From: Pseudomonadota bacterium | GTDB taxonomy: Bacteria; Pseudomonadota; Gammaproteobacteria; Burkholderiales; SG8-39 | DNA: 64,000 bases | Assembly (NCBI GenBank): GCA_021811085.1 | Contig: JAJZPQ010000002.1 | Location: 132,698-196,697 of the forward strand | Direction: 5' to 3' | Part shown: piece after piece, positions 45,435 to 60,500 of the stretch | Position numbering within the stretch: position 1 is the first letter of the stretch | How the letters are laid out: each line of letters opens with the position of its first letter | The notes under the pieces: model-generated | Seen by the model: the letters and a program-made list of their open reading frames with translations, nothing else | The model's database searches: none | What the model was told of the DNA's origin: nothing | Translations under genes and position numbers: made by a program

Positions 45435-48182
45435 ATGAAGCGCATGCTGTTTAATGCGACACAGGCCGAAGAACTCCGTGTCGCCATAGTCGATGGTCAA
45501 AAACTCATAGACCTAGACATTGAATCGGCCTCGAAAGAGCAACGCAAGAGCAATATCTACAAGGGTGTCATCACCCGTGTTGAGCCCAGCCTCGAGGCTG
45601 CGTTCATCGATTACGGCACCGACCGACACGGTTTTCTCCCGTTCAAGGAAGTCGCCCGCGCCTATTTCAAGGCAGGTGTCGACGTCGGCCGCGCGCGCAT
45701 CCAGGACGCGCTCAAGGAAGGCCAGGAACTGATCGTCCAGGTGGAAAAGGACGAGCGCGGCAATAAAGGCGCCGCGCTTACCACTTTCATCAGCCTCGCC
45801 GGACGCTACCTGGTGCTGATGCCGAACAACCCGCGCGGCGGCGGCGTATCGCGCCGCGTCGAAGGCGAAGACCGCGAAGAGCTGCGCGACACCATGGACC
45901 AGCTGCCGGTGCCGCAGGGTATGAGCGTCATCGCGCGCACCGCGGGCATCGGCCGCTCGGTGGAAGAACTCGATTGGGACCTGAAATACCTGCTGCAGCT
46001 GTGGCATGCGATCGAGGAGGCCTCCACCAGCCAGAAAGGCGCGTTCTTGATTTACCAGGAAGGCAGCCTCGTGATCCGCGCCATCCGCGACTACTTCCAT
46101 CCGGAAATCGGCGAGATCCTGATCGACACCGATTCTATCTTCGAGCAGGCGCAGCAGTTCATGGCGCATGTGATGCCGGACAACGTGAACCGGGTGAAGC
46201 GCTACCGCGACGACGTGCCCCTGTTCTCGCGCTTCCAGATCGAGCACCAGATCGAAACCGCCTATTCGCGCCAGGTCAACCTGCCTGCGGGCGGCGCCGT
46301 GGTCATCGACCATACCGAGGCGCTGGTGGCGATCGACGTCAACTCGGCGCGCTCCACCCGCGGCAGCGACATCGAGGAAACTGCGTTTCGCACCAATCTC
46401 GAGGCAGCCGAGGAGATCGCGCGCCAGCTGCGCCTGCGCGACCTGGGCGGCCTGATCGTGATCGACTTCATCGACATGGAGTCGCAGCGCAACCAGCGCG
46501 AAGTCGAAAACCGCCTGCGCGAATCGCTGCACTTCGACCGCGCGCGCGTGCAGATGGGCAAGATTTCGCGCTTCGGCCTAATGGAACTGTCGCGCCAGCG
46601 CCTGCGCCCGTCGCTAGGCGAAGGCAGCACCATCACCTGCCCGCGCTGCAATGGCATCGGCCATATCCGCGGCATCGAATCCACGGCGCTGCACATCCTG
46701 CGCATCATCCAGGAAGAAGCGATGAAGGAAAATACCGCCGCCGTGCATGCGCAGGTGCCGGTGGACGTCGCGACCTTCCTCTTGAACGAGAAGCGCACCG
46801 ACATTCACAGCGTGGAAGCGCGCCTCAAGGTCAATGTAGTGCTGATCCCGAACACGCATTTGGAAACGCCGCATTACCAGATTTCGCGCCTGCGCCACGA
46901 CGATCTGAACCAGGCCGAACCGCTGCCCGCCAGCTATAACATGGTGCAATTGCCGGCCGAGGAAGAAACCAAGCCGCAGACCGGCGCAGAGCCGAAGGCG
47001 GTGCGGCAGCAGGCCGCGGTGCAGGGCATCACCCCAGCCGAACCCGCGCCTATGCCGGTGGCGAAACCGGCCGCCCCGCAGGAGCAAGCCAAGCCAGGCA
47101 TCATTTCCCGCATCATGGGTTGGTTCAAGGGAGAAACTCCTGCGGCCGAGGCCGAACCCAGCAGCGGCATTCGTCCTTCGCGCCGTGAACCCCGGCGTGA
47201 GCCGCAGCGCGATCGCGGTGAACGCGGTGAACGCGGAGATCGTGGAGAGCGCGGCGGACGTGGCGGGCGCGGCGGACGCGACCGGCAGGAGCGCGGTGGA
47301 CGCGAAGCACGTCCGGCGCAAGGCGAAGTCAACCGGCCGGAACAGCGCGAGCCGCGTCAGGAACGCAGCCGCGGCGAGCGCCCGGAACGCGAAGCACGTC
47401 CCGAGCGCGGTGAACGCCCCGAGCGCGAAGCGCGGCCGGAACGGGAAGCACGTCCCGAGCGCGGTGAGCGCCCGCAGCGCGAACCGCGTGAACCACGCGA
47501 GCCGCGTCAGCCAAGAGTGCAACCGCAAGGCGAGCTGCAGTCCGGCGCCGAAGCCAGGCCGCAGGGTGAAGCACGTCCCGAGGGCGGCGAACCCGGACGC
47601 AGTCGCGGCCGGCGCGGCCGCGGTGGCCGCGGTGAACGCGGTGAAAGAGGCGACCGCGGTGAACGTGGTGAACGCGGTCCGCGCATGGAGCGCGGCGAGC
47701 GGACCGAGCCAGCCGAACGCGTGCGCGCCGAGCAAGCCGAACACGCCGCGCGCGCGCTGCGCGAGGAGCACGAAGCTGAACCGCAAACCGAACCGAGCAC
47801 GCCGCTGGAGTCGGCCATGCCCGAGGAGCATCGGCCTGCCCCGGCACCCGTAGAGGCTGCGATTTTCGCTGAGCCGGCTGCAGCTGTTGCGGCGGTCGAA
47901 CTCAGCGCCGTGCCTGAACCCGCAGCGCCTGCGCCTGCGATCAGCCGCGTTGAACCCGCCGTCGCAACGGCGCCTGTCGCGCCGCCGGCGCCTGCGCCGA
48001 TCGATGTCGATAAGGCATTGCAGGAAAGCGGCCTGGTGCTGGTGCAGACCGATCCGAGCAAAGTGAAGCTGGCAGAGCCGCCAGCCGAGCCTCAGTTCGT
48101 GCCGGCGCGGCCGCGTCCGCGGCGCACCCCGCCCCCCGACTCCGGGCCACTGCAAATCGTGGAAACACGCAAAGATGCCTAA
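45435..48182 (+). CDS. rne: Ribonuclease E
   Basis: 915 aa. [31 protein letters not shown]1 domain, the DNase-I-like/Zn-link catalytic half ([12 protein letters not shown]), then a low-complexity Arg/Glu/Pro-rich scaffold half. Confidence 0.95.
47170..47720 (+). repeat. Degenerate in-frame tandem repeats encoding the Arg/Glu/Gly/Pro-rich segments of RNase E
   Basis: The protein reads [21 protein letters not shown] ... (ERPEREARP / [12 protein letters not shown]) x several ... [24 protein letters not shown]. The DNA shows repeated cgcgaagcacgtcccgagcgcggtga units. All other frames stay open here because of composition. Confidence 0.7.
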
Positions 48183-48268: not shown

Positions 48269-48374
48269 GCTGACCCAGGATGCCATGCCACGCCGCGCCG
48301 GCTGGCGCCGCGCCCCGGCAATGTTGTAAGCTGTGCGGCCCCAGCCACCAATGCGGCCAGCGCCCGCTACTTCC

Positions 48375-49601
48375 ATGACCCAATCCGCAGTCAACAATCC
48401 GGACGAACCCATGCTCGCCGGGATTACCGTCCTCGATTTCACCCGCGTGCTGGCCGGACCGTACGCGACGCGCATGCTCGCCGATCTGGGCGCGCATGTG
48501 ATCAAGATCGAACGCCCCGGCGAAGGCGATGAGATCCGCCATACCGTGCTGCAACTCGATCCCGCACGCACGGACCAGAGCAGTTATTTCGCGCGGCTGA
48601 ACGCGGGCAAGGAGAGCATCGCCATCGATCTCGCGCATGCGCAGGCGCGCGAAATCGCGCTCGACCTGGTGCGCAACGCGGATGTGGTGGTGGAAAATTT
48701 CTCCCCCGGCGTGATGGCGCGCTACGGCCTGGACGATGCCGCGCTGCGCGCCCTGCGCCCCGACCTCGTCTACTGCTCGATCTCGGGCTTCGGCCAGACC
48801 GGACCGCTCGCTTCGATGCAGGCCTACGCGCATCTGATCAATGCCATCTCCGGCATGATGGACCTGGACCGCGGCAGCGAGGCGCAGCCGCGCGTGGCCT
48901 ATTTGCAGGCGGCCGATGTGCTCGCCGGCGCCCATGCATTCGGCGCGATCTGCGCAGCCCTGGTGCGCCGAGGCCGCAGCGGGCGCGGCGCCTACCTGGA
49001 CGTGTCGATGCTCGAGTGCCTGGTCGCCGCGGACGACCTCACCTACGGCGCGATCCTGAACGGCGGCAAGGTGCAACGCGAGCCGCGCATAGGCATGGTG
49101 GTGCATCCCATAGGCGGGCGTTACCTGGCGATGCAAAGCGCGGGCGCGCCGCACCTGTGGTCGCGCCTGGTGAACCTGATCGGCCGGCCCGAACTCGAAA
49201 CCGATCCGCGCTTTTCCACGCCGATGGCGCGGCGCGCGAACTGGCATGACCTGCTCAAAATCCTGCGCGCGTGGCTCAGCGGCTTCGACAGCGTGGAACA
49301 GGCGGTCAAAACGCTTTCTGCGGCGCGCATCCCGGCCGTGCCCATGCTCTCCCCCGAGGAAGTCATCGACCACCCGCAGCTCGCGGCGCGCTCGGCGTTT
49401 CCCGAAATCGAGCACCGCGGCCGCGGCCGCATACGCGTGACGGCGCTGCCGTTCCATGTCGACCACGCCCCGGTCGCCCCGGGCGGCCCGGCGCCCTATC
49501 GCGTCGGCGAACATACGCAGCAGGTGCTGCAAGGACTCGGCTACGATGCCGAGCGCATCCGTGCGCTGCAGGCGGAGCGGGTGGTCGAGATTCCGGACTG
49601 A
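48375..49601 (+). CDS. Family III CoA-transferase (CaiB/BaiF family)
   Basis: GITVLDFTRVLAGPYATRMLADLGAHVIKIERPGEGDEIR is the family III N-terminal signature. Start ATG 48375, 48333 or 48411. Confidence 0.85.
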   Translation: MTQSAVNNPDEPMLAGITVLDFTRVLAGPYATRMLADLGAHVIKIERPGEGDEIRHTVLQLDPARTDQSSYFARLNAGKESIAIDLAHAQAREIALDLVRNADVVVENFSPGVMARYGLDDAALRALRPDLVYCSISGFGQTGPLASMQAYAHLINAISGMMDLDRGSEAQPRVAYLQAADVLAGAHAFGAICAALVRRGRSGRGAYLDVSMLECLVAADDLTYGAILNGGKVQREPRIGMVVHPIGGRYLAMQSAGAPHLWSRLVNLIGRPELETDPRFSTPMARRANWHDLLKILRAWLSGFDSVEQAVKTLSAARIPAVPMLSPEEVIDHPQLAARSAFPEIEHRGRGRIRVTALPFHVDHAPVAPGGPAPYRVGEHTQQVLQGLGYDAERIRALQAERVVEIPD

Positions 49602-50045
49602 ATCCAGACTCCCGGAGCTGATGCCGGGCGCGTATCTGCAGAACGACAAAGCCGCCGTCGATGCCGAACTCGCGGCAGACGATTACATCCGGCAGACCTA
49701 TCTCGGTGTTGCATGAATGCCTCGACCCGCAGGCATGGACGCGGCTTGGCCCTGGATCAACGAACGCAAGATTCCGGGATAGCGGCGCCAAGCGATGCAC
49801 TTGTTTCGCAGTAAATCCAGTGTCGCACCTTCGTCTTCACCAACCCACCTTGGGCCGCTATCTGCCGCAAAGCGAACGAATTATCCGACGGCTTAAGGGG
49901 TCGTGTTTCGGCCAGAACCGACATTGGCTAAGCTTCCCCATAAAACATAGACACGCGCAGTGGAAGCAACATCGGTCTCAGCCCCACGGGACGGCGCGCA
50001 AATCAGATTGGCCTTGCGCCTCCACGAAGGTGTCTGAGCCTAGAG

Positions 50046-50082
50046 AACCCAGTTCTGGGTTGACTTAACCCATATCTGGGCT
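50046..50082 (+). promoter_or_regulatory. Two operator-like 16-bp dyads (AACCCA-N4-TGGGYT) spaced 21 bp apart
   Basis: Dyad 1 is AACCCAGTTCTGGGTT (50046-50061), with perfect 7-bp arms. Dyad 2 is AACCCATATCTGGGCT (50067-50082), 5/6 in the right arm. Dyad 1 abuts or overlaps the -35; dyad 2 fills the promoter spacer. Confidence 0.45.
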
Positions 50083-50088
50083 CATTAT
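50060..50088 (+). promoter_or_regulatory. Candidate sigma70 promoter placing the transcription start at or next to the ATG (leaderless mRNA)
   Basis: TTGACT (50060-50065, 5/6), a 17-nt spacer, CATTAT (50083-50088, 4/6 with A2 and T6), then 6 nt (ATCCAG) to the ATG at 50095. No Shine-Dalgarno sequence before that ATG. Confidence 0.5.
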
Positions 50089-50094
50089 ATCCAG

Positions 50095-50571
50095 ATGAAG
50101 ACGCGAAAACTTACTGCCTCAGATGTTTGCGAGGTCACAGGATATAGCAGGGATCAACTCAAAGCGCTGCTAAAAGGGGTGCCCACTTGGTCTCCCGCGC
50201 CGAGCGCACGCGTAGCGAGGGAATTCTTGCCGCATGACTTGATCGTGCTCGGAGTGGTTCGGGCTCTTGACAGCCGCGTAGGCATGCGGCGCAAGCAGAT
50301 AGGATTGATGCTTCCAAAATTGCGGCAAGCGTTACTTGGCCCGCGGGAAGTGGATAGGTCCGCCTATCTGGCGATCTCGTTCAATCCACTGCATGTCGAG
50401 TACGTCAGCGAAAAGACTTCAATTAGGGAAGGAGTCATGGTTTCGCTTGAGCCCATTTTCGACCGCGTCGACGGTTACCTTGGTGCGGCTCAATCTTGGA
50501 ACGCGTCCCAAGAGAACCTTCGGCTTCCGCTCGGCGCGGTTCGATCCCGTCGACGTAAAGCCGCCGGGTAA
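50095..50571 (+). CDS. MerR/excisionase-like HTH protein, putative regulator of the islet operon
   Basis: 158 aa. LTASDVCEVTGYSRDQLKALLK followed by FLPHDLIVLGVVRALDSRVGMRRKQIG resembles the MerR-type HTH + wing layout. The C-terminal ~80 aa are unassigned. 14 nt upstream of the methyltransferase. Confidence 0.55.
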   Translation: MKTRKLTASDVCEVTGYSRDQLKALLKGVPTWSPAPSARVAREFLPHDLIVLGVVRALDSRVGMRRKQIGLMLPKLRQALLGPREVDRSAYLAISFNPLHVEYVSEKTSIREGVMVSLEPIFDRVDGYLGAAQSWNASQENLRLPLGAVRSRRRKAAG

Positions 50572-50585
50572 GAAAGTCCAGTACG

Positions 50586-53540
50586 ATGAACGCCGCGCCG
50601 CTCCAACGAGTCCTCGAAGCAACTGGCTTCTTTCCGGATGGAGAACCTGCGCGCGGACTTCAGTTAGCCGCCAAGGCCCGTGAACGTCGTGGGCGGGTAT
50701 TTTCGCCCGATGCATCCTGGCGAAGCCCTTCCGCACTCAAGGTCTACTTCAAGTTCGAACCGAGCATACCTTTGAACAGCGTCATCGGTGAATGGCGCCG
50801 CGAGATCTGGAACGAAGGATTCTCACCACTATTGTGGATTGTCTCACCGGACAAAATTGAGCTTTTCAATGGTTTTGGCGAGCCGATGGAAAGCGGTGAT
50901 GCTGAGGCCAACCGGATCGCTACCTTTCGAAACATCGATTCTGAACTTCGTGAGCTGGATGCCCTAGCAGGTCGTGTGGCACTTGAGACGGGTCAGTCCT
51001 GGCGTCAAATGCCACAGATCGACCGGAAGTCGAGCGTCGACCAGAGACTACTGTCCGATTTGGCGCACCTGGAACACGATTTAGTTGAGATGAATCTCGA
51101 TAGGCACGCGGCTCAGGCACTAATCGGCAGGACCATATTCACGCAATATCTCATCGACCGTGGAATCGTTAGTTCCTTGCGGCTCAAGAAGCTGACCGGA
51201 CATTCGACACTTCCGCCAATACTTCGAGACCGAAATGCTACTGCCCGGCTCTTTGCGTGGCTAAGCGAGACGTTCAACGGCGACATGTTCCCGCCATCTT
51301 CAGCAACGAACACTCCACGCACCTCCTACTTGGGCCGAGTAGCAGATTTTCTCGCCGCAACCGATCCGGTCTCGGGGCAAACTTCATTCTTTCCTTATCA
51401 ATTTGACGTGATCCCCGTTGAGTTGATTAGTTCGATCTACGAGCAGTTCGCCCACTCGGCTTCCGAATCCAAGGCCGGCGTAGACGCTCGAAAGCATGGA
51501 ATTCACTACACGCGGCTCTCCGCAGTCTCGTTGGTCCTTGACGAGGTCATGAATGGACTCACGGGACGGGAAAGTGTGCTCGATTTGACCTGCGGTTCCG
51601 GGGTTTTCCTTGTCGAGGCGTTGCGCCGGCTCGTTGCGCTGCAAACTCCTGATGGAAGTCCGTCGCGCGATGTAATCCGGAAGACGCTTTATCAGCAGGT
51701 TTACGGAATCGATCTGAGCGAGGCCGCGATTCGGGTTGCGGCATTCAGTTTGTACCTTTCGGCGCTTGAGCTGGACCCAGATCCGCATCCCCCAGAGGAA
51801 CTCAAGTTCGATCCTCTAGTTAATCGAACGCTTTTTGCGGGAAACGCTCACACAATCGAGCTAACTCGAGAAGGCGCGGCGCGGCTCACGGAAGATGGCG
51901 CCCTGAAAAAGTTCGATCTAATCGTAGGTAACCCGCCTTGGAGCTTCAAAGGCAAACGTGGGACAGCTGCCAGACGCAAAGGTCGAGCCCACGGTGTGCC
52001 CGCGCAACCGCGCGGTGAAGGGCTGGATTTTCTTCATCGCGCAATAGCGTTTTCGCACGAGAGAACCAGATTCGGGGTGATTCTTAACGCAATGTCGTTT
52101 TTCAGTGGGAGTGCCACTGGCATCGCGGCCGCAAAGCACGTTCTGCGTCTTCTGGCTCCTGTCACTTTAGTAAATCTGTCCTCGCTATCTGGCTGGTTGT
52201 TCGCCACAGCGAGTGCGCCAGCGGTCGTCCTTTACGCGCGGCATCGCGCGCAACGACCTGATCAATTGACAGTTGTCCAAGTACCTTGGTCGGCCGCTGG
52301 TACCCGGACACACACGTTCGAGGTTTCACGGAGTGATGTCATACGGCTAACACTCGCGGAGGTCGAGAAGAATCCGTTCAAACTCAAGGCGGCTGCAGTG
52401 GGCCGGCGCCGCGATCTGGCACTTCTCGACGATCTCGGCTCTTCGTTCTCCACGTTGGCCGCACAGCTTACCTTGTTCCAAACCAAACTGAGCGATGGGC
52501 TTACCCACGGTTCACCAAGTAATCAGACTCGCGATGCGCGCGCCCTGAAGGGGCTTGAGGTACTCGACGCCAAAAATATCAGGCCGATGTCAATTCCAGA
52601 CTCTCTCCCGCGCTTTACGCTGTTAAGAGCTCAGTGGCCTCGGACACAAGAGACGTATCGCGCTCCACTCGTGATTATCAAGGAAATGGTTGGAGACAAT
52701 GCCCGGGCAATAGCGGCCGTATCTGAGCGAGACCTTATTTTTACTGATGCATTTTTCGGCGTGTCTCTGCCCAAGAGTTATGCTCCAATCGCGCATCTTC
52801 TCGTCGCGGTGTTGAGCTCATCGGTCGCGTCGTGGTTCTTCACAATGACTGCTTCTGAATTCGCGATCTGGAAGCGGAAACTCCTGATTCGGGACGTGAA
52901 TCTCTTGCCGATCCCGGATCTTAAGGCGGCCGCGGCATCTTCCGTTGGCAAGCAGCTATTGCGTCTGTCGAGGAAGATGCATGGGCAAGTCGGAGGCGCC
53001 GATGATTGGGCTGCCTTAGACCTAGCGGTATTCGATCTTTATGGGCTTGATGACGCAGACCGCGCAGTGGTGCAAGACGGTTGGTTCCGAGCAAGCTGGC
53101 AATGGCAGGCCGGAAGGGAAGCATCCGTGTCGGCTGCAAGCATCGACTTGGATCTCCCCAACTACGCTCGACTATTTCTATCCGTGGTTTCAGGCTGGCT
53201 TTCTATTCGGAATGAACAGCATATGCGCGCGGAGATTTTCGACGTGCCAGCGCGAAATGCACTGCGAGTCATCAGATTTATACTTGAACCAGGATCAGGA
53301 CCGTCCAGCATCAATGTGGTTCAAGTCAACTGCGAACTTAACGAGGTGCTAGCGAACATTGGCAAGCGGCTCAATGTAAAAATCGCCAGCGCATTGAGCG
53401 CGAGCCGGGAGCTACGCGTCCATGGCAGAAACGAGGTCGTCATCGTGAAGCCGTCGGCTCGTCGCTATTGGATGGGCGTTTGCGCCCTCGATGATGCTGA
53501 TGCCGTGGTGGCTGAAAGCCTCGCCGGTACCGCTGAATGA
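50586..53540 (+). CDS. Large gamma-class N6-adenine DNA methyltransferase with MmeI/Eco57I-like layout (unassigned N-domain, helical connector, MTase, large C-terminal specificity region)
   Basis: 984 aa. ELISSIYEQF (res ~279-288). Motif X HGIHYTRLSAVSLVLDEV. Motif I VLDLTCGSGVFL (res 331-342, nt 51576-51611). Motif IV NPPW (res 449-452, nt 51930-51941). Connector LIGRTIFTQYLIDRGI (res ~179-194). About 430 aa after the MTase core have no motif I recognise. Confidence 0.85.
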   Translation: MNAAPLQRVLEATGFFPDGEPARGLQLAAKARERRGRVFSPDASWRSPSALKVYFKFEPSIPLNSVIGEWRREIWNEGFSPLLWIVSPDKIELFNGFGEPMESGDAEANRIATFRNIDSELRELDALAGRVALETGQSWRQMPQIDRKSSVDQRLLSDLAHLEHDLVEMNLDRHAAQALIGRTIFTQYLIDRGIVSSLRLKKLTGHSTLPPILRDRNATARLFAWLSETFNGDMFPPSSATNTPRTSYLGRVADFLAATDPVSGQTSFFPYQFDVIPVELISSIYEQFAHSASESKAGVDARKHGIHYTRLSAVSLVLDEVMNGLTGRESVLDLTCGSGVFLVEALRRLVALQTPDGSPSRDVIRKTLYQQVYGIDLSEAAIRVAAFSLYLSALELDPDPHPPEELKFDPLVNRTLFAGNAHTIELTREGAARLTEDGALKKFDLIVGNPPWSFKGKRGTAARRKGRAHGVPAQPRGEGLDFLHRAIAFSHERTRFGVILNAMSFFSGSATGIAAAKHVLRLLAPVTLVNLSSLSGWLFATASAPAVVLYARHRAQRPDQLTVVQVPWSAAGTRTHTFEVSRSDVIRLTLAEVEKNPFKLKAAAVGRRRDLALLDDLGSSFSTLAAQLTLFQTKLSDGLTHGSPSNQTRDARALKGLEVLDAKNIRPMSIPDSLPRFTLLRAQWPRTQETYRAPLVIIKEMVGDNARAIAAVSERDLIFTDAFFGVSLPKSYAPIAHLLVAVLSSSVASWFFTMTASEFAIWKRKLLIRDVNLLPIPDLKAAAASSVGKQLLRLSRKMHGQVGGADDWAALDLAVFDLYGLDDADRAVVQDGWFRASWQWQAGREASVSAASIDLDLPNYARLFLSVVSGWLSIRNEQHMRAEIFDVPARNALRVIRFILEPGSGPSSINVVQVNCELNEVLANIGKRLNVKIASALSASRELRVHGRNEVVIVKPSARRYWMGVCALDDADAVVAESLAGTAE

Positions 53541-54199
53541 AACTGCCCGACGAGGCCCCGGCGGCGCTCGGCCACGAGTTTATTGCGCTATCTACGGACG
53601 TCACTGTCGCGATACTCACTATTCTGACCGCTGGATGGCGCCGTGCGAAAGCATACCGCGACGTAAATACGCAGGCTGGTGAGGTACCTGTCACAGAGCG
53701 TCTTCGGGACGGTATGAGACAAGCGCTCAAGCTGGATGGATATCCGTGGGCCAAGATGCTCTTGGTGCTACCCGGAACGGAGGCGCGATCACGGGAAGCG
53801 CTTGTTCCAGATGGTCGGACCGATATCCCGCTCGTATGGCTTGAGATTTTTCTTCGGCACGGCGAGCATGATCCGCATGCGATCGTTGAATGTAAGCGGA
53901 TCGCTGGCTCGGACACATCCCTTTGCCGCGAATATGTGATCGAAGGCATAGACCGGTTCCGGTCCGGCAAGTATGGGTTCAATCACGCTGTCGGCTTTAT
54001 GGTCGGATATTTGCTTTGTGGCACCGATGCAGAGGCGGTCGCGGGTATCAATGGCTATTTAAACCGGCAAGGCCGCACTGATGAAGAGCTTCGCAGCTCG
54101 GGTTCGGCAGCAGCGACGTGGGCTAGTCGTCATGGCCGAGCTTCCTCCTCCGCAATTTCGCTGCACCATATGTTCTTTGAGCTCGCAACAGTGATGTGA
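53537..54199 (+). CDS. Mrr-like PD-(D/E)xK nuclease (putative restriction endonuclease partner)
   Basis: 220 aa. Helix VTERLRDGMRQALKLDGY (E54), then VPDGRTDIPLVW (P91-D92, D96), then AIVECKRIAG (E118-C-K120, nt 53888-53896): the classic E...PD...ExK order. The ATG overlaps the methyltransferase stop (ATGA at 53537-53540). Confidence 0.6.
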   Translation: MKLPDEAPAALGHEFIALSTDVTVAILTILTAGWRRAKAYRDVNTQAGEVPVTERLRDGMRQALKLDGYPWAKMLLVLPGTEARSREALVPDGRTDIPLVWLEIFLRHGEHDPHAIVECKRIAGSDTSLCREYVIEGIDRFRSGKYGFNHAVGFMVGYLLCGTDAEAVAGINGYLNRQGRTDEELRSSGSAAATWASRHGRASSSAISLHHMFFELATVM

Positions 54200-54592
54200 T
54201 AAATCAGAACAGAGCTTATCCTGAGTCGGTGTGGGGGGCGAAGATTAGCGACCCTAAACCTGGGCTTCGTTGCAACGGCTGCGAGACAAGTCCAAGATGT
54301 TGGGAATGATCGCTTTGGGTCGGATACGGCCGGTTAATCAAGCGTGATCGAGGTCCGCCCCTGGCGGCAAAGCGATTACGGCACCAATACGAGGACCGCC
54401 GCCCTGTTTGCTCGCAGACAGGAAAATCGCGAGAGGGGAAAAGCCCTAAACTCCGCGTCCCTCCTCGCTCTGCGGCCGATTCCCCGCCGAACTTTGAGCG
54501 CGTAGCCCGCCCTCTCCCGCCTCACCGGGAGAGGAATTTCCCGTCCTGACTTTTCTCCGGCGCCCGTACCTGGCGCTTTGCCCCTCGGGGAA

Positions 54593-55297
54593 TCAGCGTC
54601 CCGCGCCGCGGCTGCGCACCAGCTGGTACGGCCGCAGCAGGTAGAACACCGAGGCGAAGCCGCTCCAGATATGCACCAGGCGCGTGAACGGAAACAGCAG
54701 GAAGATCGTGAGGCCGATGGTCAGGTGCAGCTTGAACACGATCGAGGCGCCGGCGATGAGGTCTGCCGCTCCCGAGCGGAAGGTCCAGATGCGCTGCGCC
54801 CAATCCATCAGTTTCAGCATCTCCGAGCCGTCGAGGTGCTGCGCCGAGACCGGGATCGTGGCGAGACCGATCAGGACCTGCACCAGGAACAACACGAGCA
54901 CCAGGATATCGCTCGGTTTGCTGGTGGCGCGAATGCGCGCGTCGCCGAGACGGCGCAGCAGCAGAATCAGCAATCCCGCGGTCAGGATCACCCCGAAAAT
55001 TCCTCCCGCGATCATCGCTGTCAGTTGCTTTTCGCTCGCCGGTACTCCCAGAAAGTTCCACACCGCGTGCGGCGTGAGCAGGCCGCCGAGGTGGCCGAAG
55101 AAAATGCCAAGGATGCCGATGTGGAACAGGTTCGACCCCCATCTGAGCTGGCCATGGCGCAGCAACTGGGACGAATCGCTCTTCCAGGTGTACTGCTCGC
55201 GGTCGAAGCGGATCAGGCTGCCGAGGAAAAACACCACCAGGCAGATGTACGGGTAATAGCCGAACAGGAACTGGTTCAGATAGGCGTTGAGGTCCAT
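54593..55297 (-). CDS. narI: Respiratory nitrate reductase gamma subunit
   Basis: 234 aa. MDLNAYLNQFLFGYYPYICLVVFFLGSLIRFDREQYTWKSDSSQLL, with haem-ligand His in the TM helices. Confidence 0.93.
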   Translation of the reverse strand: MDLNAYLNQFLFGYYPYICLVVFFLGSLIRFDREQYTWKSDSSQLLRHGQLRWGSNLFHIGILGIFFGHLGGLLTPHAVWNFLGVPASEKQLTAMIAGGIFGVILTAGLLILLLRRLGDARIRATSKPSDILVLVLFLVQVLIGLATIPVSAQHLDGSEMLKLMDWAQRIWTFRSGAADLIAGASIVFKLHLTIGLTIFLLFPFTRLVHIWSGFASVFYLLRPYQLVRSRGAGR

Positions 55298-55311
55298 GCG
55301 TGGCTCCTGAT

Positions 55312-55989
55312 TCAGGGGTTCTTGGGTACGAAGCGGATGAATTGCGGGCGCGACTGCTGCGCGCCCTGTGCCGCGGCCGCATTAAGACCGGCCGGCGGGC
55401 CGAACTCCACCGGAGTCTCGTCCCAATCCTCATCCAGGGATGGCGCCGCCTGCGCCTTGCCCGGGCGCTGGGCCTTAGCCAGCGGCGCCGCGCCGTGCAG
55501 GTCCAGCAGTGCGGCGAAAACCGCTGCATAGGGGCTGCCGCCTGCGGCCAGACGCTCGCCGATGGCGCGCAGGATATGCACGCAGTCCTCGAGCAAGTCG
55601 TGCACGTCCGCGGCCGGCCGCGTCGCCAGATATTCCAGCAGCGCCGGCAGATAGTCCGGCAGTTCGTTCACTGCGAGTACGAAACCCGAGCGCCGGTACA
55701 AGGCGTTGAGGTCCACCATCGCCTGGCCGCGATCGCGCGAGTCGCCGTGCACGTGCTCGAACAGGTGCAGCGAAGTCGAGCGTCCGGCGTCGAATTGCGC
55801 CACGTAGCGCTCCTGCAGATCGAGCAGATCCTCGCGTTTGAGTTCGGCCAGCAGTCCGGCAAGGTCATCTTGGGTCGCTCCGCGCAGCGCGGGTTCCGCG
55901 CCCAGCCTGCGCGCGATCTCGGGCAGCGCGGTCACCAGTTCCTCCGAGGGATAGCTGAGCAGGACCGCAAGCAGTTTGAGGTTCTTCAT
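55312..55989 (-). CDS. narJ: Nitrate reductase molybdenum cofactor assembly chaperone
   Basis: 225 aa. LKLLAVLLSYPSEELV, YVAQFDAGRSTSLHLFEHVHGDSRDRGQAMVDL. Sits between narH and narI. Confidence 0.88.
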   Translation of the reverse strand: MKNLKLLAVLLSYPSEELVTALPEIARRLGAEPALRGATQDDLAGLLAELKREDLLDLQERYVAQFDAGRSTSLHLFEHVHGDSRDRGQAMVDLNALYRRSGFVLAVNELPDYLPALLEYLATRPAADVHDLLEDCVHILRAIGERLAAGGSPYAAVFAALLDLHGAAPLAKAQRPGKAQAAPSLDEDWDETPVEFGPPAGLNAAAAQGAQQSRPQFIRFVPKNP

Positions 55990-56007
55990 CTTGTCATCTC
56001 CTGGCGA

Positions 56008-57531
56008 CTAGGTTAGCGACTTGATCGGGATGGTCTTGCGTTTCTTGCCGCCGAACAGGCTGGCCTCGGATTGGCCGTCGGAGCAGCCGTTGCCGAAGGA
56101 GAAGCCGCAGCCGCCGCGCAGGTCGTAGGCGTTTTCCGCATATTCGCGGTGCGTGGTCGGAATGACGAAGCGGTCCTCGTAGTTCGCGATCGCCATGTAG
56201 CGGTACATATCCTCCACCTCCGCCTTGGACAGGCCGACCTGCTTCAGCACCTCCGTGTTCTCGCGCTGCTCCACGTGCCGGCCGCGCATGTAGGCGCGCA
56301 TCGCGAGCATGCGCTCGAGCGCCGCCACCACCGGCGCCTCGTCGCCCGCAGTGAGCAGATTGGCAAGGTACTGCAGCGGGATGCGCAGGCTGCGCACATC
56401 GGGCAGCGCACCGAACGCGCCGAGTTGCCCGGTATTGGCGGCCGCGCTGATCGGCGACAGCGGCGGCACATACCAGACCATGGGCAGCGTGCGGTACTCC
56501 GGATGCAGCGGCAGCGCGACTTTCCACTCCATCGCCATTTTGTACACAGGTGATTCCTGCGCCGCCTTGATCCAGGCCTCGGGCACGCCGTCGGCGCGCG
56601 CCTGCGCCTGCACTTCGGCCGCATGCGGATCGAGAAACACACCCAGTTGCGCCTTGTACAAATCCTTTTCGTTCTCCACGCTCGCCGCATCGAGGATGCG
56701 GTCGGCGTCATAGAGCATCACGCCGAGGTAGCGGATGCGCCCGACGCAAGTCTCCGAGCAAACGGTGGGCTGCCCCGATTCGATGCGCGGATAGCAGAAA
56801 ATGCACTTCTCGGCCTTGCCGGTGGACCAGTTGTAGTAGATCTTCTTGTACGGACAGCCGGATACGCACATGCGCCAGCCGCGGCACTTGTCCTGGTCGA
56901 TCAGGACAATGCCGTCTTCCTCGCGCTTGTAGATCGAGCCCGACGGGCAGGATGCGACGCAGGTCGGATTGAGGCAATGCTCGCACAGGCGCGGCAGGTA
57001 CATCATGAAGGTGTTTTCGAACTGACCGTACATCTCCTTCTGCATGTCCTCGAAATTGGAGTCCTTCCCGCGCTTGGCGAACTCGCCGCCGAGGATTTCC
57101 TCCCAGTTGGGCCCGCCTTCGATTTTCTCCATGCGCTCTCCTGTGATCAGCGAGCGCGGGCGTGCGGTCGGCGGCGCCTTCATTTCCGGCGCATTGTGCA
57201 GGTGCTGGTAATCGTAGGTAAACGGCTCGTAATAGTCGTCGATCTGCGGCAGGTTCGGATTCGCGAAAATCTTCAGTAACACCTCAAGCTTGCCGCCCTG
57301 CTTGGGCTGGATTTTGCCCGAGTCCTTGCGCACCCAGCCGCCGTTCCATTTCTCCTGGTTTTCCCATTGTTTCGGGTAGCCGATGCCCGGTTTGGTTTCG
57401 ACGTTGTTGAACCAGGCGTACTCCATGCCCTCGCGGTTGGTCCAGACGTTCTTGCAGGTGACCGAGCAGGTGTGGCAGCCGATGCATTTGTCGAGGTTGA
57501 GCACCATGCCGATTTGAGCGCGTACTTTCAT
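56008..57531 (-). CDS. narH: Respiratory nitrate reductase beta subunit
   Basis: 507 aa. MKVRAQIGMVLNLDKCIGCHTCSVTCKNVWT and further Fe-S Cys clusters (CEHCLNPTCVASCP, CRGWRMCVSGCPY). Confidence 0.96.
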   Translation of the reverse strand: MKVRAQIGMVLNLDKCIGCHTCSVTCKNVWTNREGMEYAWFNNVETKPGIGYPKQWENQEKWNGGWVRKDSGKIQPKQGGKLEVLLKIFANPNLPQIDDYYEPFTYDYQHLHNAPEMKAPPTARPRSLITGERMEKIEGGPNWEEILGGEFAKRGKDSNFEDMQKEMYGQFENTFMMYLPRLCEHCLNPTCVASCPSGSIYKREEDGIVLIDQDKCRGWRMCVSGCPYKKIYYNWSTGKAEKCIFCYPRIESGQPTVCSETCVGRIRYLGVMLYDADRILDAASVENEKDLYKAQLGVFLDPHAAEVQAQARADGVPEAWIKAAQESPVYKMAMEWKVALPLHPEYRTLPMVWYVPPLSPISAAANTGQLGAFGALPDVRSLRIPLQYLANLLTAGDEAPVVAALERMLAMRAYMRGRHVEQRENTEVLKQVGLSKAEVEDMYRYMAIANYEDRFVIPTTHREYAENAYDLRGGCGFSFGNGCSDGQSEASLFGGKKRKTIPIKSLT

Positions 57532-60500
57532 GACTTCACTCCTTCAGCCAATTCGGCCGTCGCCTCTTCGTCCAACCAGTCCACTTTTTTCATTTTGCGC
57601 ACCACCACGAACTCGTCGCGGTTGGTGCCGATGGTGCCGTAGTAGTTGAAGCCGTAGGACAGCTGCGCGTAGCCGCCGATCATGTGCGTCGGCTTGGTGA
57701 CGATGCGCGTGACCGAGTTGTGGATGCCGCCGCGCGTACCGGTGATTTCCGAGCCCGGGGTGTTGATGATCTTCTCCTGCGCGTGGTACATCATGCACAT
57801 GCCCGGCAGCACGCGCTGGCTCACCACCGCGCGCGCCGCGATGGCGCCGTTCACGTTATAGAGTTCGATCCAGTCGTTGTCGACGATGCCGGCTTTCCTG
57901 GCATCGTCCTCCGACAGCCACACGATCGGACCGCCGCGCGACAACGTCAGCATCAGCAGATTGTCGGTGTAGGTCGAGTGGATGCCCCACTTCTGGTGCG
58001 GCGTGATGAAATTCAGCAGCACCTCGGGGTTGCCGTTGCCGCGCACGCCGCGCATCGCGCGAGTGGTCTTCAAGTCGACCGGCGGGCGGTACACGCACAG
58101 ACCTTCGCCGAAACCCAGCATCCACTTGTGATCCTGGTAGAACTGCTGGCGTCCGGTCAGGGTGCGCCAGGGAATCAGCTCGTTGACGTTGGTCCAGCCG
58201 GCGTTGTAGCTGACCTTCTCCGACTCGATGCCGCTCCAGGTCGGGCTGGATATGATCTTGCGCGGCTGCGCCTGCAGATCGCGAAAGCGCAGTTTCTCGT
58301 CCTCTTTTGCCCGCGCCAGGTGCGCATGCTCGCGCCCGGTGATTTTGGAGAGCGCCTCCCAGGCCTTCACCGCCACCTCGCCGTTGGTCTCCGGTGCGAG
58401 CGAGAGAATCACCTCGGCCGCGTCGATGTCGGTGTCGATCCTGGGCATGCCCCGCGTGATGCCCTCGTCCGTCACCGCGTAGTTCAGTTCGCCGAGCTGC
58501 TGCACTTCGTGCTCGGTGTTCCAGGCGATGCCCTTGCCGCCGTTGCCGACCTTCGCCATGAGCGGCCCGAGCGCCGTGAATTTCTTATAGGTGTTCGGGT
58601 AGTCGCGCTCGATCACCGTCATCGCCGGCGCGGTTTTGCCGGGAATCAGCTCGCACTGGCCTTTTTTCCATTCCTTGACGTCGAGCGCCTGCGCCAGCTC
58701 ACCCGGCGTGTCGTGCATCAGCGGCGTCAGCACCAGTTCTTTCTCCACCCCCAGGTGCCCGACGCACAGTTCGGAGAATTTCTTGGCAAAGCCTTTGTAA
58801 ATCTCCCAGTCGTTCCTCGCCTCCCACGCCGGATCCACTGCGGCCGACAGCGGGTGGATGAACGGGTGCATGTCCGAGGTGTTGAGGTCGTTCTTCTCGT
58901 ACCAGGTAGCGGTGGGCAGCACGATGTCCGAATACAGGCAGGTGGTCGACATGCGGAAATCCAGCGTCACCAGCAGGTCGAGCTTGCCCTCGGGCGCCTC
59001 TTCGCGCCAGGTCACCTCCTCCGGTTTGGTGCCGCCGAAGCTACCGAGGTCCTTGCCCTGCACCCCATGCGTCGTCCCCAGGAGATGCTTGAGGAAATAC
59101 TCGTGGCCCTTGCCCGAGGATCCGATCAGATTGGAACGCCAAATAAAGAGATTTCTCGGAAAATTGGCCGGATCGTCCGGATCCTCGCAGGCGAGGCGCA
59201 GCTTGCCGTCTTTGAGCGACTTCACCGCGTAATCCTTGGGATCCATGCCGGCGGCCGCGGCATCCTTGACCACCTGGATCGGATTGGTCTGCAGCTGCGG
59301 CGCCGAGGGCAGCCAGCCCATGCGCTCGGCGCGCACATTGAAGTCGATCAGCGAGCCGGTGTATTCCTTCGGATCGGCCAGCGGCGAGAGGATCTCGCTG
59401 ATCGCGAGCTTCTCGTAGCGCCATTGATCGGTATGCGCGTAAAAGAATGAAGTCGAATTCATCTGCCGCGGCGGGCGATGCCAATCGAGCGCGAACGCGA
59501 GCGCAGTCCAGCCGGTCTGCGGCCGCAGTTTTTCCTGCCCGACATAGTGGGCCCAGCCGCCGCCGGACACGCCGACGCAGCCGCACATGACCAGCATGTT
59601 GATGATGCCGCGGTAGTTCATGTCGCAGTGATACCAGTGGTTCATGCCTGCGCCGATGATCACCATCGATTTGCCCCGCGTCTTGTCGGCGTTGTCGGCG
59701 AACTGGCGCGCGACCAGGATCACGTCGGCGGCCTTGACGCCGGTGATGGCCTCCTGCCACGCCGGCGTGTAGGGCACGTTCTGCTCGAAGCTGCTGGCGA
59801 CATTGCCGCCGCCGAGGCCGCGATCGATGCCGTAGTTGGCGACGAGCAGGTCGAATACGCTCGCCACCAGTACCTCGCCTTCCGCCAACTGCAGTTTCTT
59901 CACCGGCACGTTGCGCAGCAGCACGTCCTTGCCCTGCTCGTTGTGGTTGAAGTTCTCGGTGACGATGCCGCCGAAATAAGGGAAGGCGACCGGCGCGACA
60001 TCGTCGCGCCGGTCGATCAGCGACAGACACAGCTTCGCTTCCCCTCCTCCCGCCTCCTTCTGTTCCAGATTCCATTTGCCGTCGCTCTGCCCCCAGCGGA
60101 ATCCGATGGAACCGTTCGGCACCACCACTTTTCCCGAGTGTTCGTCGAAAGCGACGGTCTTCCAGTCGGGGTTGTTCGCCTGCGCCAGCTTGTCGGAGAA
60201 GTCCGTGGCGCGCACGAAGCGGTCGGGCACGTAGCGCCCGTCGCGCTTGACCAGCTTTACCAGCATCGGCAGGTCGGTATAGCGGCGCGCGTAGTCCTGG
60301 AAATAGGCCGAAGGCTTGTCCAGGTGGAATTCCTTCAGGATCACATGCCCCATCGCCATCGCCAGCGCCGCATCGGTGCCCTGCTTGGGGTGCAGCCACA
60401 GGTCGCCGAGCTTGGACACCTCGGCGTAGTCCGGGGTGATCGATACGATTTTCGCCCCCTTGTAGCGCACTTCGGTGAAGAAATGGGCATCGGGCGTGCG

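What the first reader, a model, noticed from the sequence alone, without database searches (positions are those of the whole stretch)
53537..54199. Translationally coupled Mrr-like PD-(D/E)xK ORF downstream of the methyltransferase
The 220-aa product shows the canonical order of a restriction-endonuclease-like fold. A helix with a conserved Glu (VTERLRDGM, E54) is followed by a strand with PD (VPDGRTDIPLVW, D92/D96) and then a hydrophobic strand ending in ExK (AIVECKRIAG, E118/K120). The DGRTD...VECKR spacing resembles the Mrr catalytic domain pattern (DgGiD...vQcKr).

Its ATG is embedded in the MTase stop (ATGA), which suggests stoichiometric co-expression. The N-terminal 45 aa are hydrophobic (FIALSTDVTVAILTILTAGW), which is odd for a soluble nuclease. 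The C-terminal 60 aa are unassigned.
Basis: partly seen in the sequence, partly recalled or inferred. Interest (0 to 1): 0.65.

Follow-up and report, generated by a model that had tools for sequence, protein, structure and literature searches.

The report
Small nuclease partner of methyltransferase
The 220-residue gene is real and always sits, overlapping by four bases, behind a large restriction-modification-type methyltransferase; it is most likely that enzyme's separately encoded DNA-cutting subunit, an unannotated variant of an ordinary bacterial defence system.

Summary
The ORF (53537-54199, +) and its ATGA overlap with the upstream 984-aa gene are confirmed. It belongs to a large unannotated family: about 1000 clusters, with no Pfam, NCBIfam, PADLOC or PHROG model.

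In 80 of 80 genomes from many phyla a homologue of the same methyltransferase lies directly upstream. 50 of 51 distinct junctions keep an NTGA start/stop overlap.

Down to 23% identity the only invariant polar residues are E49, D96, E118 and K120. In an AlphaFold model these sit at the start of helix 1, the start of strand 2 and inside strand 3 of an alpha-beta-beta-beta-alpha-beta core, which is the PD-(D/E)xK signature.

No structure or profile search gave a significant match. Mrr membership specifically fails. The N-terminal helix is not a membrane helix.

The large protein is laid out like a Type IIG/IIL enzyme, but its own N-terminal nuclease-like domain never carries a canonical (D/E)xK (Y/I/L-F-K, V-F-V, I-I-E).

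Best reading: this is a three-gene cassette of a MerR-like regulator, a methyltransferase/recognition subunit with a degenerate nuclease domain, and a small catalytic nuclease subunit. It is carried on mobile elements, including a known defence hotspot of integrative conjugative elements. It is a new variant of a known kind and of moderate interest.

The parts
49650..54500 (.). Low-GC island (about 53-58% GC against 62-74% in the flanks) that holds the three-gene cassette. It lies between a CoA-transferase-like ORF and the nitrate-reductase genes.
   Evidence: Composition profile. No tRNA. No convincing flanking repeats.
50060..50088 (+). The only sigma-70-like promoter match in the island, 7 nt upstream of the first gene.
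   Evidence: It is a consensus match only and is no more than shuffles give.
50095..50571 (+). 158-aa helix-turn-helix protein. It is a divergent member of the MerR-like family that precedes the methyltransferase in 49 of 80 related loci, and is the likely controller of the cassette.
   Evidence: Weak Pfam HTH_26 hit. The upstream family matches MerR_1 above its cutoff. hhalign of the window protein against that family gives probability 71%, E 3.7e-5 over 145 collinear columns. Positional conservation is shown, and the B. betae locus is annotated MerR.
50586..51005 (+). Large subunit, residues 1-140: PD-(D/E)xK-fold nuclease-like domain with P41-D42 ... Y54-F55-K56, so the canonical Glu is absent.
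   Evidence: AF2 model, pLDDT 92. Foldseek top hits are DrdV, BpuSI and the Hjc resolvase. Column counts are D42 69/69, Y54 67/69 (His 2) and K56 68/69. Distant relatives have I-F-K, L-F-K, V-F-V, I-I-E and V-V-D.
51006..51470 (+). Large subunit, residues about 141-295: helical spacer.
   Evidence: All-helical in the model. Collinear with the PADLOC Type IIG profiles. Same position as the MmeI spacer at residues 156-300 (PMC4833311).
51471..52265 (+). [quoted passage not shown]
   Evidence: Pfam N6_Mtase 2.1e-11, Eco57I and MmeI_Mtase. The motifs are invariant in 69 homologues.
52266..53540 (+). Large subunit, residues about 561-984: target-recognition region (the least conserved part) and C-terminal domain, ending at the TGA stop.
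   Evidence: Weak TaqI_C hit at 663-776. Mean column identity is 0.66 for 561-800 against 0.72-0.80 elsewhere. PADLOC profile PDLC03623 is collinear to residue 975.
53537..53540 (+). ATGA start/stop overlap, the site of translational coupling.
   Evidence: NTGA is conserved in 78 of 80 loci and in 50 of 51 distinct junctions: TTGA 24, ATGA 16, GTGA 10.
53537..54199 (+). The 220-aa small subunit, a predicted PD-(D/E)xK nuclease. Secondary structure: helix 20-37, helix 49-66, strand 75-77, strand 96-101, strand 115-122, helix 127-143, strand 152-159, helix 164-177, strands 194-199 and 207-215.
   Evidence: AF2 model with pLDDT 84 and pTM 0.83. Family data.
53681..53683 (+). Codon for E49, the invariant Glu at the start of core helix 1.
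53822..53824 (+). Codon for D96, the invariant Asp at the first residue of core strand 2.
53888..53896 (+). Codons for E118-C119-K120, the ExK motif inside core strand 3.

Best explanation
ORF 53537-54199 encodes the small catalytic endonuclease subunit of a two-subunit restriction-modification-type system derived from Type IIG/IIL enzymes.

The 984-aa upstream protein supplies DNA recognition (its target-recognition region) and N6-adenine methylation. It keeps an N-terminal nuclease-fold domain that has lost the canonical (D/E)xK.

The 220-aa protein carries the intact site (E49, D96, E118-x-K120). It is made by termination-reinitiation at the NTGA overlap, probably in smaller amounts than the large protein. 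It is presumed to dock on the large subunit and cut unmethylated DNA that the large subunit has recognised. The upstream MerR-like HTH protein probably times expression.

Shown here: gene reality, the conserved overlap, strict co-occurrence and co-inheritance, the invariant residues, the predicted topology, the degenerate motif in the large protein, and the location on mobile elements and a defence hotspot.

Inferred: nuclease activity, physical association, which surfaces dock, and the defence phenotype.
For: 1. Co-occurrence. 80 of 80 loci from Beta-, Gamma- and Alphaproteobacteria, Latescibacterota, Acidobacteriota, Gemmatimonadota, Nitrospirales, Opitutales and Rhodothermales have the full-length methyltransferase homologue directly upstream on the same strand. 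The same holds for members at 23-30% identity or detectable only by HMM.

2. Junction. A 4-nt overlap is kept in 78 of 80 loci while the start codon itself varies.

3. Co-inheritance. Pairwise identities of the two proteins correlate with r=0.95 over 2211 pairs.

4. Invariant residues. E49, D96, E118 and K120 survive to 23% identity. They are also present in the plasmid homologues: RTDI...EFK and YDLAF...EAK.

5. Predicted fold. The model topology is alpha-beta-beta-beta-alpha-beta, with D96 at the start of strand 2 and ExK in strand 3.

6. Sub-threshold hits cluster on one fold class. Foldseek PDB top hits are Can2 nuclease structures. The viral library gives Rpb5, an Mrr-domain protein and a PD-(D/E)XK protein. 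Pfam PDDEXK_9 is the only family hit by more than one member (2 of 75, best E 0.0063). PADLOC gives Cas4 at 0.039 and CARF_PDDEXK at 0.043.

7. The large protein's N-terminal domain. It is a confident PD-(D/E)xK-like fold most like DrdV, BpuSI and Hjc. However, it has Y/H, I or L in place of the Glu that is essential in MmeI (D70, E80, K82; PMC4833311). In more distant relatives it also loses the Asp or the Lys.

8. A natural deletion. The Agrobacterium variant lacks the N-terminal 260 aa of the methyltransferase entirely yet keeps the small partner.

9. Context. One copy sits between TraC and TraU of a PAPI-1/ICEclc-type conjugation cluster that is 96-99.6% identical across genera. That interval is a published defence hotspot (PMC12629846). 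Other copies lie beside a TIR gene in a Tn7-like element and beside toxin-antitoxin genes.
Against: - No search returned a statistically significant match to any known nuclease. Foldseek gave E>=0.03 with TM about 0.2-0.3. PDB sequence and profile searches were empty. Pfam, NCBIfam, PADLOC and PHROGs gave no hit for the window protein.
- Only one of five AF2 models was confident (84, 71, 47, 46, 39).
- I could not inspect coordinates, so the spatial clustering of E49, D96, E118 and K120 is unverified.
- The large subunit still keeps D42 and K56 in the close family. An acidic residue supplied from elsewhere (for example E134, conserved as E or D) cannot be excluded, so that domain might still cut.
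- No physical interaction, methylation motif, transcript or phenotype data exist. Only DNA metagenome runs hold this sequence.
Confidence: 0.6

Rival explanations
1. Heterodimeric two-nickase model. Both the large subunit's N-terminal domain (using D42, K56 and a relocated acidic residue) and the small protein are active. Each cuts one strand, as in BtsI, BsrDI and BspD6I.
For: D42 and K56 are near-invariant and the N-terminal domain is well conserved within the close family (mean column identity 0.75). In BtsI and BsrDI a small subunit cuts only together with a large recognition subunit, and part of one catalytic site is shared between the subunits (PMC1950550, PMC2909958). It is established knowledge of Cfr10I/NgoMIV-type enzymes that the acidic residue of PD-(D/E)xK sites can migrate.
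Against: Across the wider family the N-terminal positions are not kept: Q for D42 in B. betae, and V, E or D for K56. One branch lacks the domain altogether. The small protein's motif never varies.
Confidence: 0.2
2. The small protein has a nuclease-like fold but acts as a non-catalytic accessory to a self-sufficient Type IIG enzyme, for example as a DNA-binding, licensing, assembly or regulatory subunit.
For: No significant similarity to any active nuclease was found. PADLOC would call the large protein alone a Type IIG restriction enzyme-methyltransferase.
Against: The residues that stay invariant to 23% identity are exactly a metal-binding and catalytic set, E, D, E and K. Meanwhile the large protein lacks the Glu that is essential in MmeI. 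A regulator is already present upstream.
Confidence: 0.1
3. An independent Mrr-like (Type IV, modification-dependent) nuclease that merely neighbours the methyltransferase.
For: In the best local hhalign path the motif PDGRTDI...IVECKRI lines up with Mrr GDGGIDGVI...YVQAKRW, but at E 0.29.
Against: No Mrr_cat hit in 75 members at E<=10. Profile-profile probability is 0.2%. There is no DNA-binding N-terminal domain. The strict 4-nt coupling and co-inheritance with an active-looking methyltransferase would be self-destructive for a nuclease that depends on methylation.
Confidence: 0.03
4. The pair is an addiction or abortive-infection module rather than classical restriction. The small nuclease attacks the host chromosome when methylation lapses, which stabilises the mobile element that carries it.
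For: The cassette rides on integrative conjugative elements, Tn7-like elements and plasmids, next to toxin-antitoxin genes. Post-segregational killing is an established property of many Type II restriction-modification systems (PMC2993543, listed).
Against: This does not exclude the best explanation. It needs the same nuclease chemistry, and nothing here distinguishes the two outcomes.
Confidence: 0.07

Closest known systems
Type IIG/IIL restriction-modification enzymes (MmeI, BpuSI, DrdV)
   Same: The large protein has the same domain order: N-terminal PD-(D/E)xK-fold domain, helical spacer, gamma-class N6-adenine methyltransferase, target-recognition region and C-terminal domain. It is of similar size. 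It matches the Pfam MmeI_Mtase and Eco57I families and PADLOC Type IIG profiles collinearly. The model of its first 300 residues hits DrdV and BpuSI first. The MmeI layout is taken from PMC4833311.
   Different: Those enzymes are single polypeptides with a functional D...ExK. Here the Glu is always missing (Y, H, I or L), and in distant relatives the Asp or Lys is missing too. A separate 220-aa protein with an intact E...D...ExK is always encoded behind it with a 4-nt overlap.
Heterodimeric Type IIS endonucleases with a small catalytic subunit (BtsI, BsrDI, BspD6I)
   Same: A large subunit carries DNA recognition. A small subunit of about 160-190 aa has no activity or specificity of its own and cuts only in the complex (PMC1950550, PMC2909958, PMC6261011). 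This is the proposed working principle for the 220-aa protein.
   Different: In those systems the methyltransferases are separate proteins and the large subunit has an active nuclease site. No sequence or structural homology to them was tested or found here, so the likeness is functional only.
Mrr / Mrr_cat (PF04471) Type IV restriction endonucleases
   Same: Same superfamily signature order (D ... (E/Q)xK followed by R) and a small alpha/beta core.
   Different: No detectable family membership. No winged-helix N-terminal domain. The protein is coupled to a methyltransferase rather than directed against methylated DNA.
Can2/Card1-type CARF-PD-(D/E)xK nuclease domain and the Cas4 and PDDEXK_9 families
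   Same: These are the families that recur among the best sub-threshold hits from both structure and sequence searches.
   Different: All hits are below significance (E 0.006-0.2, TM about 0.2). There is no CARF domain and no Cas4 cysteine cluster.

Membership tests
PD-(D/E)xK nuclease superfamily (restriction-endonuclease-like fold) | Core alpha-beta-beta-beta-alpha-beta topology | tested here: met
   DSSP of the AF2 model gives H49-66, E75-77, E96-101, E115-122, H127-143, E152-159. This is a predicted structure, not an experimental one, and only the best of five models was confident.
PD-(D/E)xK nuclease superfamily (restriction-endonuclease-like fold) | Acidic residue at the start of core strand 2 and (D/E)xK in core strand 3, conserved across the family | tested here: met
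   D96, E118 and K120 are invariant in 75 members down to 23% identity, together with E49 on helix 1. They are also present in HMM-only relatives.
PD-(D/E)xK nuclease superfamily (restriction-endonuclease-like fold) | Significant structural or profile similarity to an established member | tested here: inconclusive
   Foldseek PDB best E 0.14 (Can2), viral best E 0.03, Mrr-domain protein E 0.2. Pfam PDDEXK_9 E 0.0063 in 2 of 75 members. PADLOC Cas4 0.039 and CARF_PDDEXK 0.043. PDB profile searches were empty.
PD-(D/E)xK nuclease superfamily (restriction-endonuclease-like fold) | Divalent-metal-dependent phosphodiester cleavage | not testable with these tools
   Needs biochemistry.
Mrr_cat (PF04471) / Type IV Mrr-like | Match to the Mrr_cat family profile | tested here: not met
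   0 of 75 members hit PF04471 at E<=10. hhalign of the family profile against an alignment of 120 Mrr_cat proteins gave probability 0.2%, although that Mrr alignment was shallow (Neff 1.9).
Mrr_cat (PF04471) / Type IV Mrr-like | N-terminal winged-helix DNA-binding domain (Mrr_N) and stand-alone gene | tested here: not met
   No Pfam domain at all in the 220 aa. The gene is never alone in the loci examined: 80 of 80 have the methyltransferase.
Type IIG/IIL restriction-modification enzyme (for the upstream 984-aa protein) | N6-adenine methyltransferase motifs I and IV (NPPW) plus a target-recognition region in the same chain | tested here: met
   Pfam N6_Mtase, Eco57I and MmeI_Mtase, with weak TaqI_C. 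Motifs are invariant in 69 homologues.
Type IIG/IIL restriction-modification enzyme (for the upstream 984-aa protein) | N-terminal PD-(D/E)xK-fold domain followed by a helical spacer | tested here: met
   AF2 pLDDT 92. Foldseek gives DrdV E 0.017, BpuSI E 0.025 and Hjc E 0.075, which are marginal E-values with probabilities 0.57-0.77.
Type IIG/IIL restriction-modification enzyme (for the upstream 984-aa protein) | Catalytic D...(D/E)xK in that N-terminal domain (MmeI D70, E80, K82) | tested here: not met
   D42...Y54-F-K56, with Y in 67 of 69 and H in 2 of 69. Distant relatives have I-F-K, L-F-K, V-F-V, I-I-E and V-V-D. The MmeI residues are from PMC4833311.
Heterodimeric Type IIS endonucleases (BtsI/BsrDI/BspD6I type) | Small subunit that cleaves only in complex with a large recognition subunit | not testable with these tools
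   This is a functional analogy only. The literature basis is, and no homology test was run.

The most novel reading that the evidence does not exclude
A widespread and so far unrecognised class of restriction systems, with at least about 1000 sequence clusters. In this class a Type IIG/IIL-like enzyme has handed its cutting function to a separately encoded, translationally coupled small PD-(D/E)xK subunit. Its own nuclease domain has decayed into a docking or licensing pseudo-enzyme. Current annotation pipelines call these large proteins complete Type IIG enzymes and leave the true nuclease as 'hypothetical protein'.
Probability: 0.45. Interest if true: 0.65.

Novelty: new variant of a known kind. 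Interest (0 to 1): 0.5.

Why it matters
If correct, a large set of genes now labelled 'Type IIG restriction enzyme/methyltransferase' are only half of a system. Their partner nuclease family has no model in Pfam, NCBIfam, PADLOC or PHROGs, so defence-system censuses miscount them.

The architecture would be a natural example of a nuclease domain turning into a pseudo-enzyme while its activity moves to a trans-acting subunit.

A small, non-specific cutting module recruited by a programmable MmeI-like recognition subunit would interest enzyme engineers.

The cassette also rides in a conjugative-element defence hotspot that is shared almost unchanged between Beta- and Gammaproteobacteria. That bears on how such elements spread and protect themselves.

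Tried and rejected
- **Family libraries.** Single-sequence and profile searches of the 220-aa protein against Pfam, NCBIfam, PADLOC, PHROGs and PDB sequences gave nothing usable.
- **Foldseek.** Searches of the model against the PDB and the viral library gave no hit with E<0.01.
- **Mrr membership.** hhalign against E. coli Mrr alone aligned the motifs, but at E 0.29. hhalign against an Mrr_cat alignment gave probability 0.2%. Mrr membership was rejected.
- **Duplication of the large subunit's nuclease domain.** hhalign of the small-protein family against the large subunit's N-terminal domain found no relation. The idea that the small protein is a duplicated copy of that domain was rejected.
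- **Membrane anchor.** Rejected on hydrophobicity across the family and on the confident soluble-type helix in the model.
- **Fusion proteins as a Rosetta-stone argument.** P0168, P0202 and P0155 look like frameshift or deletion chimeras from metagenome assemblies, so they were not used as evidence.
- **Island boundaries.** A search for tRNA genes, direct repeats or inverted repeats was uninformative.
- **Expression data.** Only DNA metagenome runs from mine drainage and sediment hold the sequence.
- **Phage carriage.** None was found.

Full report
**Observation**

The ORF at 53537-54199 (+) exists and encodes 220 aa. Its ATG overlaps the TGA of the preceding 984-aa ORF (50586-53540) as ATGA.

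The gene lies in a low-GC island of about 4.8 kb (roughly 55% GC against 62-74% around it). The island holds three + strand genes: a 158-aa HTH protein (50095-50571), the 984-aa protein and the 220-aa protein. It has no tRNA and no convincing boundary repeats. The sequence comes from a mine-drainage metagenome, and no RNA data exist for it.

**The family**

The 220-aa protein has no match in Pfam, PADLOC, NCBIfam or PHROGs. It has none among PDB sequences either.

It is nevertheless a member of a large family. A word-indexed search found 1008 proteins, all about 220 aa and all unnamed or 'hypothetical'. An exhaustive profile search found 1024 clusters at 50% identity with E<1e-3.

In 36 close members many positions are invariant. 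In 75 members reaching 23% identity only E49, D96, E118, K120, G137, Y146 and H211 remain invariant. C119, R121, Y133, R140, F141 and H199 are at 90% or more.

The conserved helix Glu is E49, not E54. The conserved Asp is D96, not D92.

**Fold**

An AlphaFold model built from the 36-sequence alignment has pLDDT 84 and pTM 0.83, although only the top model of five is confident. Its elements are H20-37, H49-66, E75-77, E96-101, a short helix at 102-108, E115-122, H127-143, E152-159, H164-177, E194-199 and E207-215.

From H49 onward this is the alpha-beta-beta-beta-alpha-beta core of restriction-endonuclease-like proteins. E49 opens helix 1, D96 is the first residue of strand 2, and E118-x-K120 lies inside strand 3. 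These are the canonical positions.

No search confirms the fold at a significant level.
- Foldseek against the PDB gave best E 0.14 and TM about 0.2.
- Foldseek against viral structures gave best E 0.03.

What can be said is that the sub-threshold hits converge on one fold class.
- Can2 nuclease structures lead the PDB list.
- Rpb5, an Mrr-domain protein and a PD-(D/E)XK protein are in the viral top 17. That Rpb5's N-terminal domain is classified as restriction-endonuclease-like is my own knowledge.
- PDDEXK_9 is the only Pfam family hit by more than one of the 75 members (2 members, best E 0.0063).
- Two of the three weak PADLOC hits are Cas4 and CARF_PDDEXK.

I rate the PD-(D/E)xK assignment probable, not proven.

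**Mrr**

The specific claim of Mrr likeness fails. No member hits Mrr_cat even at E<=10. Against a profile of 120 Mrr_cat proteins the probability is 0.2%. That profile was shallow, with Neff 1.9.

**Membrane helix**

The stretch at residues 15-33 scores 1.79 on a 19-residue Kyte-Doolittle window but contains D21. The family median maximum is 1.3 and only 14 of 75 members reach 1.6. The model places a confident helix there. A membrane anchor is unlikely. A buried or interface helix is the simpler reading, and that is an inference.

**Neighbourhood**

A scan of one genome per species returned 149 confirmed loci, of which 80 were kept. They come from Proteobacteria, Latescibacterota, Acidobacteriota, Gemmatimonadota, Nitrospirales, Opitutales and Rhodothermales.

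- In 80 of 80 a full-length homologue of the 984-aa protein (51-66% identity) ends exactly where the small gene starts, on the same strand.
- In 78 of 80 the two genes overlap by 4 nt.
- Among 51 distinct junction sequences, 24 are TTGA, 16 ATGA and 10 GTGA. Only 21 have a Shine-Dalgarno-like 4-mer.

The overlap is therefore selected as such, which argues for termination-reinitiation coupling. With weak start codons this more likely gives less small protein than large protein, not equal amounts.

Pairwise identities of the two proteins across 67 distinct loci correlate with r=0.95, so they are inherited as a unit.

The pairing extends to remote members.
- Four proteins that match the profile only at 1e-14 to 1e-29 all follow a 980-1032-aa N6_Mtase/MmeI_Mtase/Eco57I gene, with 4-20 nt overlap.
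- Plasmid-borne methyltransferases only 26% identical to the window's are followed by small proteins that the family HMM recognises: B. betae 2e-18, M. oryzae 2e-17, B. gladioli 4e-9. All retain D...ExK.

A third gene, an HTH protein of about 160 aa that matches MerR_1, overlaps the start of the methyltransferase in 49 of 80 loci. The window's 158-aa ORF is a divergent member of it (hhalign probability 71%, E 3.7e-5, full length). The B. betae locus is annotated the same way.

**The large protein**

It has N6_Mtase, Eco57I and MmeI_Mtase domains and a weak TaqI_C match. It is collinear with two PADLOC 'Type IIG restriction enzyme-methyltransferase' profiles (8.9e-48 over residues 143-975). Motifs I and IV (NPPW) are invariant. 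The presumed recognition region (561-800) is the least conserved part.

Its first 300 residues have no Pfam family but fold confidently (pLDDT 92). The model shows a strand-rich domain at 1-115 followed by a helical spacer. The best structural matches are the Type IIL/IIG enzymes DrdV and BpuSI and the Hjc resolvase, followed by other PD-(D/E)xK nucleases. The E-values are marginal (0.017-0.075) but the probabilities are 0.57-0.77.

This matches the MmeI layout: nuclease 1-155, spacer 156-300, methyltransferase 301-620, recognition domain 621-825 and C-terminal bundle (PMC4833311). In MmeI, D70, E80 and K82 are each essential.

Here the equivalent strand pair reads P41-D42 ... Y54-F55-K56. The Glu position is Tyr in 67 of 69 homologues and His in 2. 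In more distant relatives it is I-F-K, L-F-K or Y-F-K. In the plasmid branch it is V-F-V with Gln in place of the Asp, or I-I-E and V-V-D.

An Agrobacterium branch has a 739-aa methyltransferase that lacks the first 260 residues or so altogether, and it still keeps the small partner.

So across the same evolutionary span the small protein's E-D-ExK never changes, while the large protein's nuclease-like domain never has a canonical site and is even dispensable.

**Mechanism**

The best-supported reading is a two-subunit restriction-modification-type system.
- The large subunit recognises DNA and methylates it.
- The small subunit, produced by coupled translation, provides the cutting site.
- The MerR-like protein probably controls timing, as controller proteins do in other restriction-modification systems. 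This last point is inference from established knowledge.

The working principle resembles BtsI, BsrDI and BspD6I, where a small subunit cuts only when bound to a large recognition subunit (PMC1950550, PMC2909958, PMC6261011).

Three variants remain possible:
- both subunits nick;
- the small protein is non-catalytic;
- the module acts mainly as an addiction system.

An independent Mrr-like Type IV enzyme is very unlikely.

**Context**

In about 15 loci from Thauera, Thiobacillus, Stutzerimonas, Ectopseudomonas, Dyella, Rhodanobacter and Zoogloea the whole 16.6-kb stretch is 96-99.6% identical. There the cassette sits between TraC/DsbA-like genes and DUF1525/TraU/TraG_N genes of a conjugation cluster. 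The TraC-TraU interval of PAPI-1-type elements has been described as a defence hotspot (PMC12629846).

Other copies lie in a Tn7-like element next to a TIR-domain gene and beside toxin-antitoxin genes. No phage carries the gene.

**Verdict**

- The nuclease interpretation is plausible and strengthened by comparative evidence, but it lacks a significant fold match.
- The Mrr label, the membrane idea and 'stoichiometric' expression are not supported.

This is a new variant of a known kind of system and of moderate interest. Its main value is an unannotated nuclease family and a likely mis-annotation of its partners as complete Type IIG enzymes.

Noticed in passing
window 50095-50571 (+): The 158-aa ORF ahead of the methyltransferase is a divergent member of a MerR-like HTH family. 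That family precedes the methyltransferase, often with a 4-nt overlap, in 49 of 80 related loci. The cassette therefore has three genes, not two.
   Followed up: yes
window 50586-51005 (+): The methyltransferase's own N-terminal domain folds like a Type IIG nuclease domain but reads D42...Y54-F-K56. The canonical Glu is missing in every homologue examined.
   Followed up: yes
L022-L036, L042 and similar (for example L022:51-13515): The cassette sits between TraC/DsbA-like and DUF1525/TraU/TraG_N genes of an integrative conjugative element. The whole 16.6 kb is 96-99.6% identical across Thauera, Thiobacillus, Stutzerimonas, Dyella, Rhodanobacter and Zoogloea, which indicates recent inter-class transfer.
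   Followed up: partly
L081:5759-8648 (Agrobacterium plasmid pAtA74a_a): A distant version of the pair in which the methyltransferase (739 aa) lacks the whole N-terminal nuclease-like domain and spacer. The two genes overlap by 14 nt.
   Followed up: partly
L088:493-7875: A distant copy of the pair lies beside TnsA-like and rve (TnsB-like) transposition genes and a CAP12/PCTIR TIR-domain gene. This looks like defence cargo of a Tn7-like element.
   Followed up: no
window 53864-53926 (residues 110-130 of the small protein): In the close family E110, H111, H114, C119 and C130 are invariant around the ExK strand, which hints at an extra metal or redox site. Only C119 stays at 90% or more in the wide family.
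   Followed up: no
proteins P0168, P0202, P0155 (metagenome assemblies): These are chimeric ORFs that join pieces of the methyltransferase to pieces of the small protein. They look like frameshift or deletion derivatives rather than natural fusions.
   Followed up: partly
window 45435-48182 (+): A 915-aa ORF whose N-terminus looks like RNase E (from my own knowledge, not tested). It has a long, highly repetitive Arg/Glu/Pro-rich C-terminal region, and GC reaches 74% there.
   Followed up: no
window 54593-61277 (-): Four - strand ORFs that look like a respiratory nitrate reductase operon (narI, narJ, narH, narG by their translations; not tested) directly flank the island. The island appears to be inserted between them and a CoA-transferase-like gene (48333-49601), with no integrase.
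   Followed up: no
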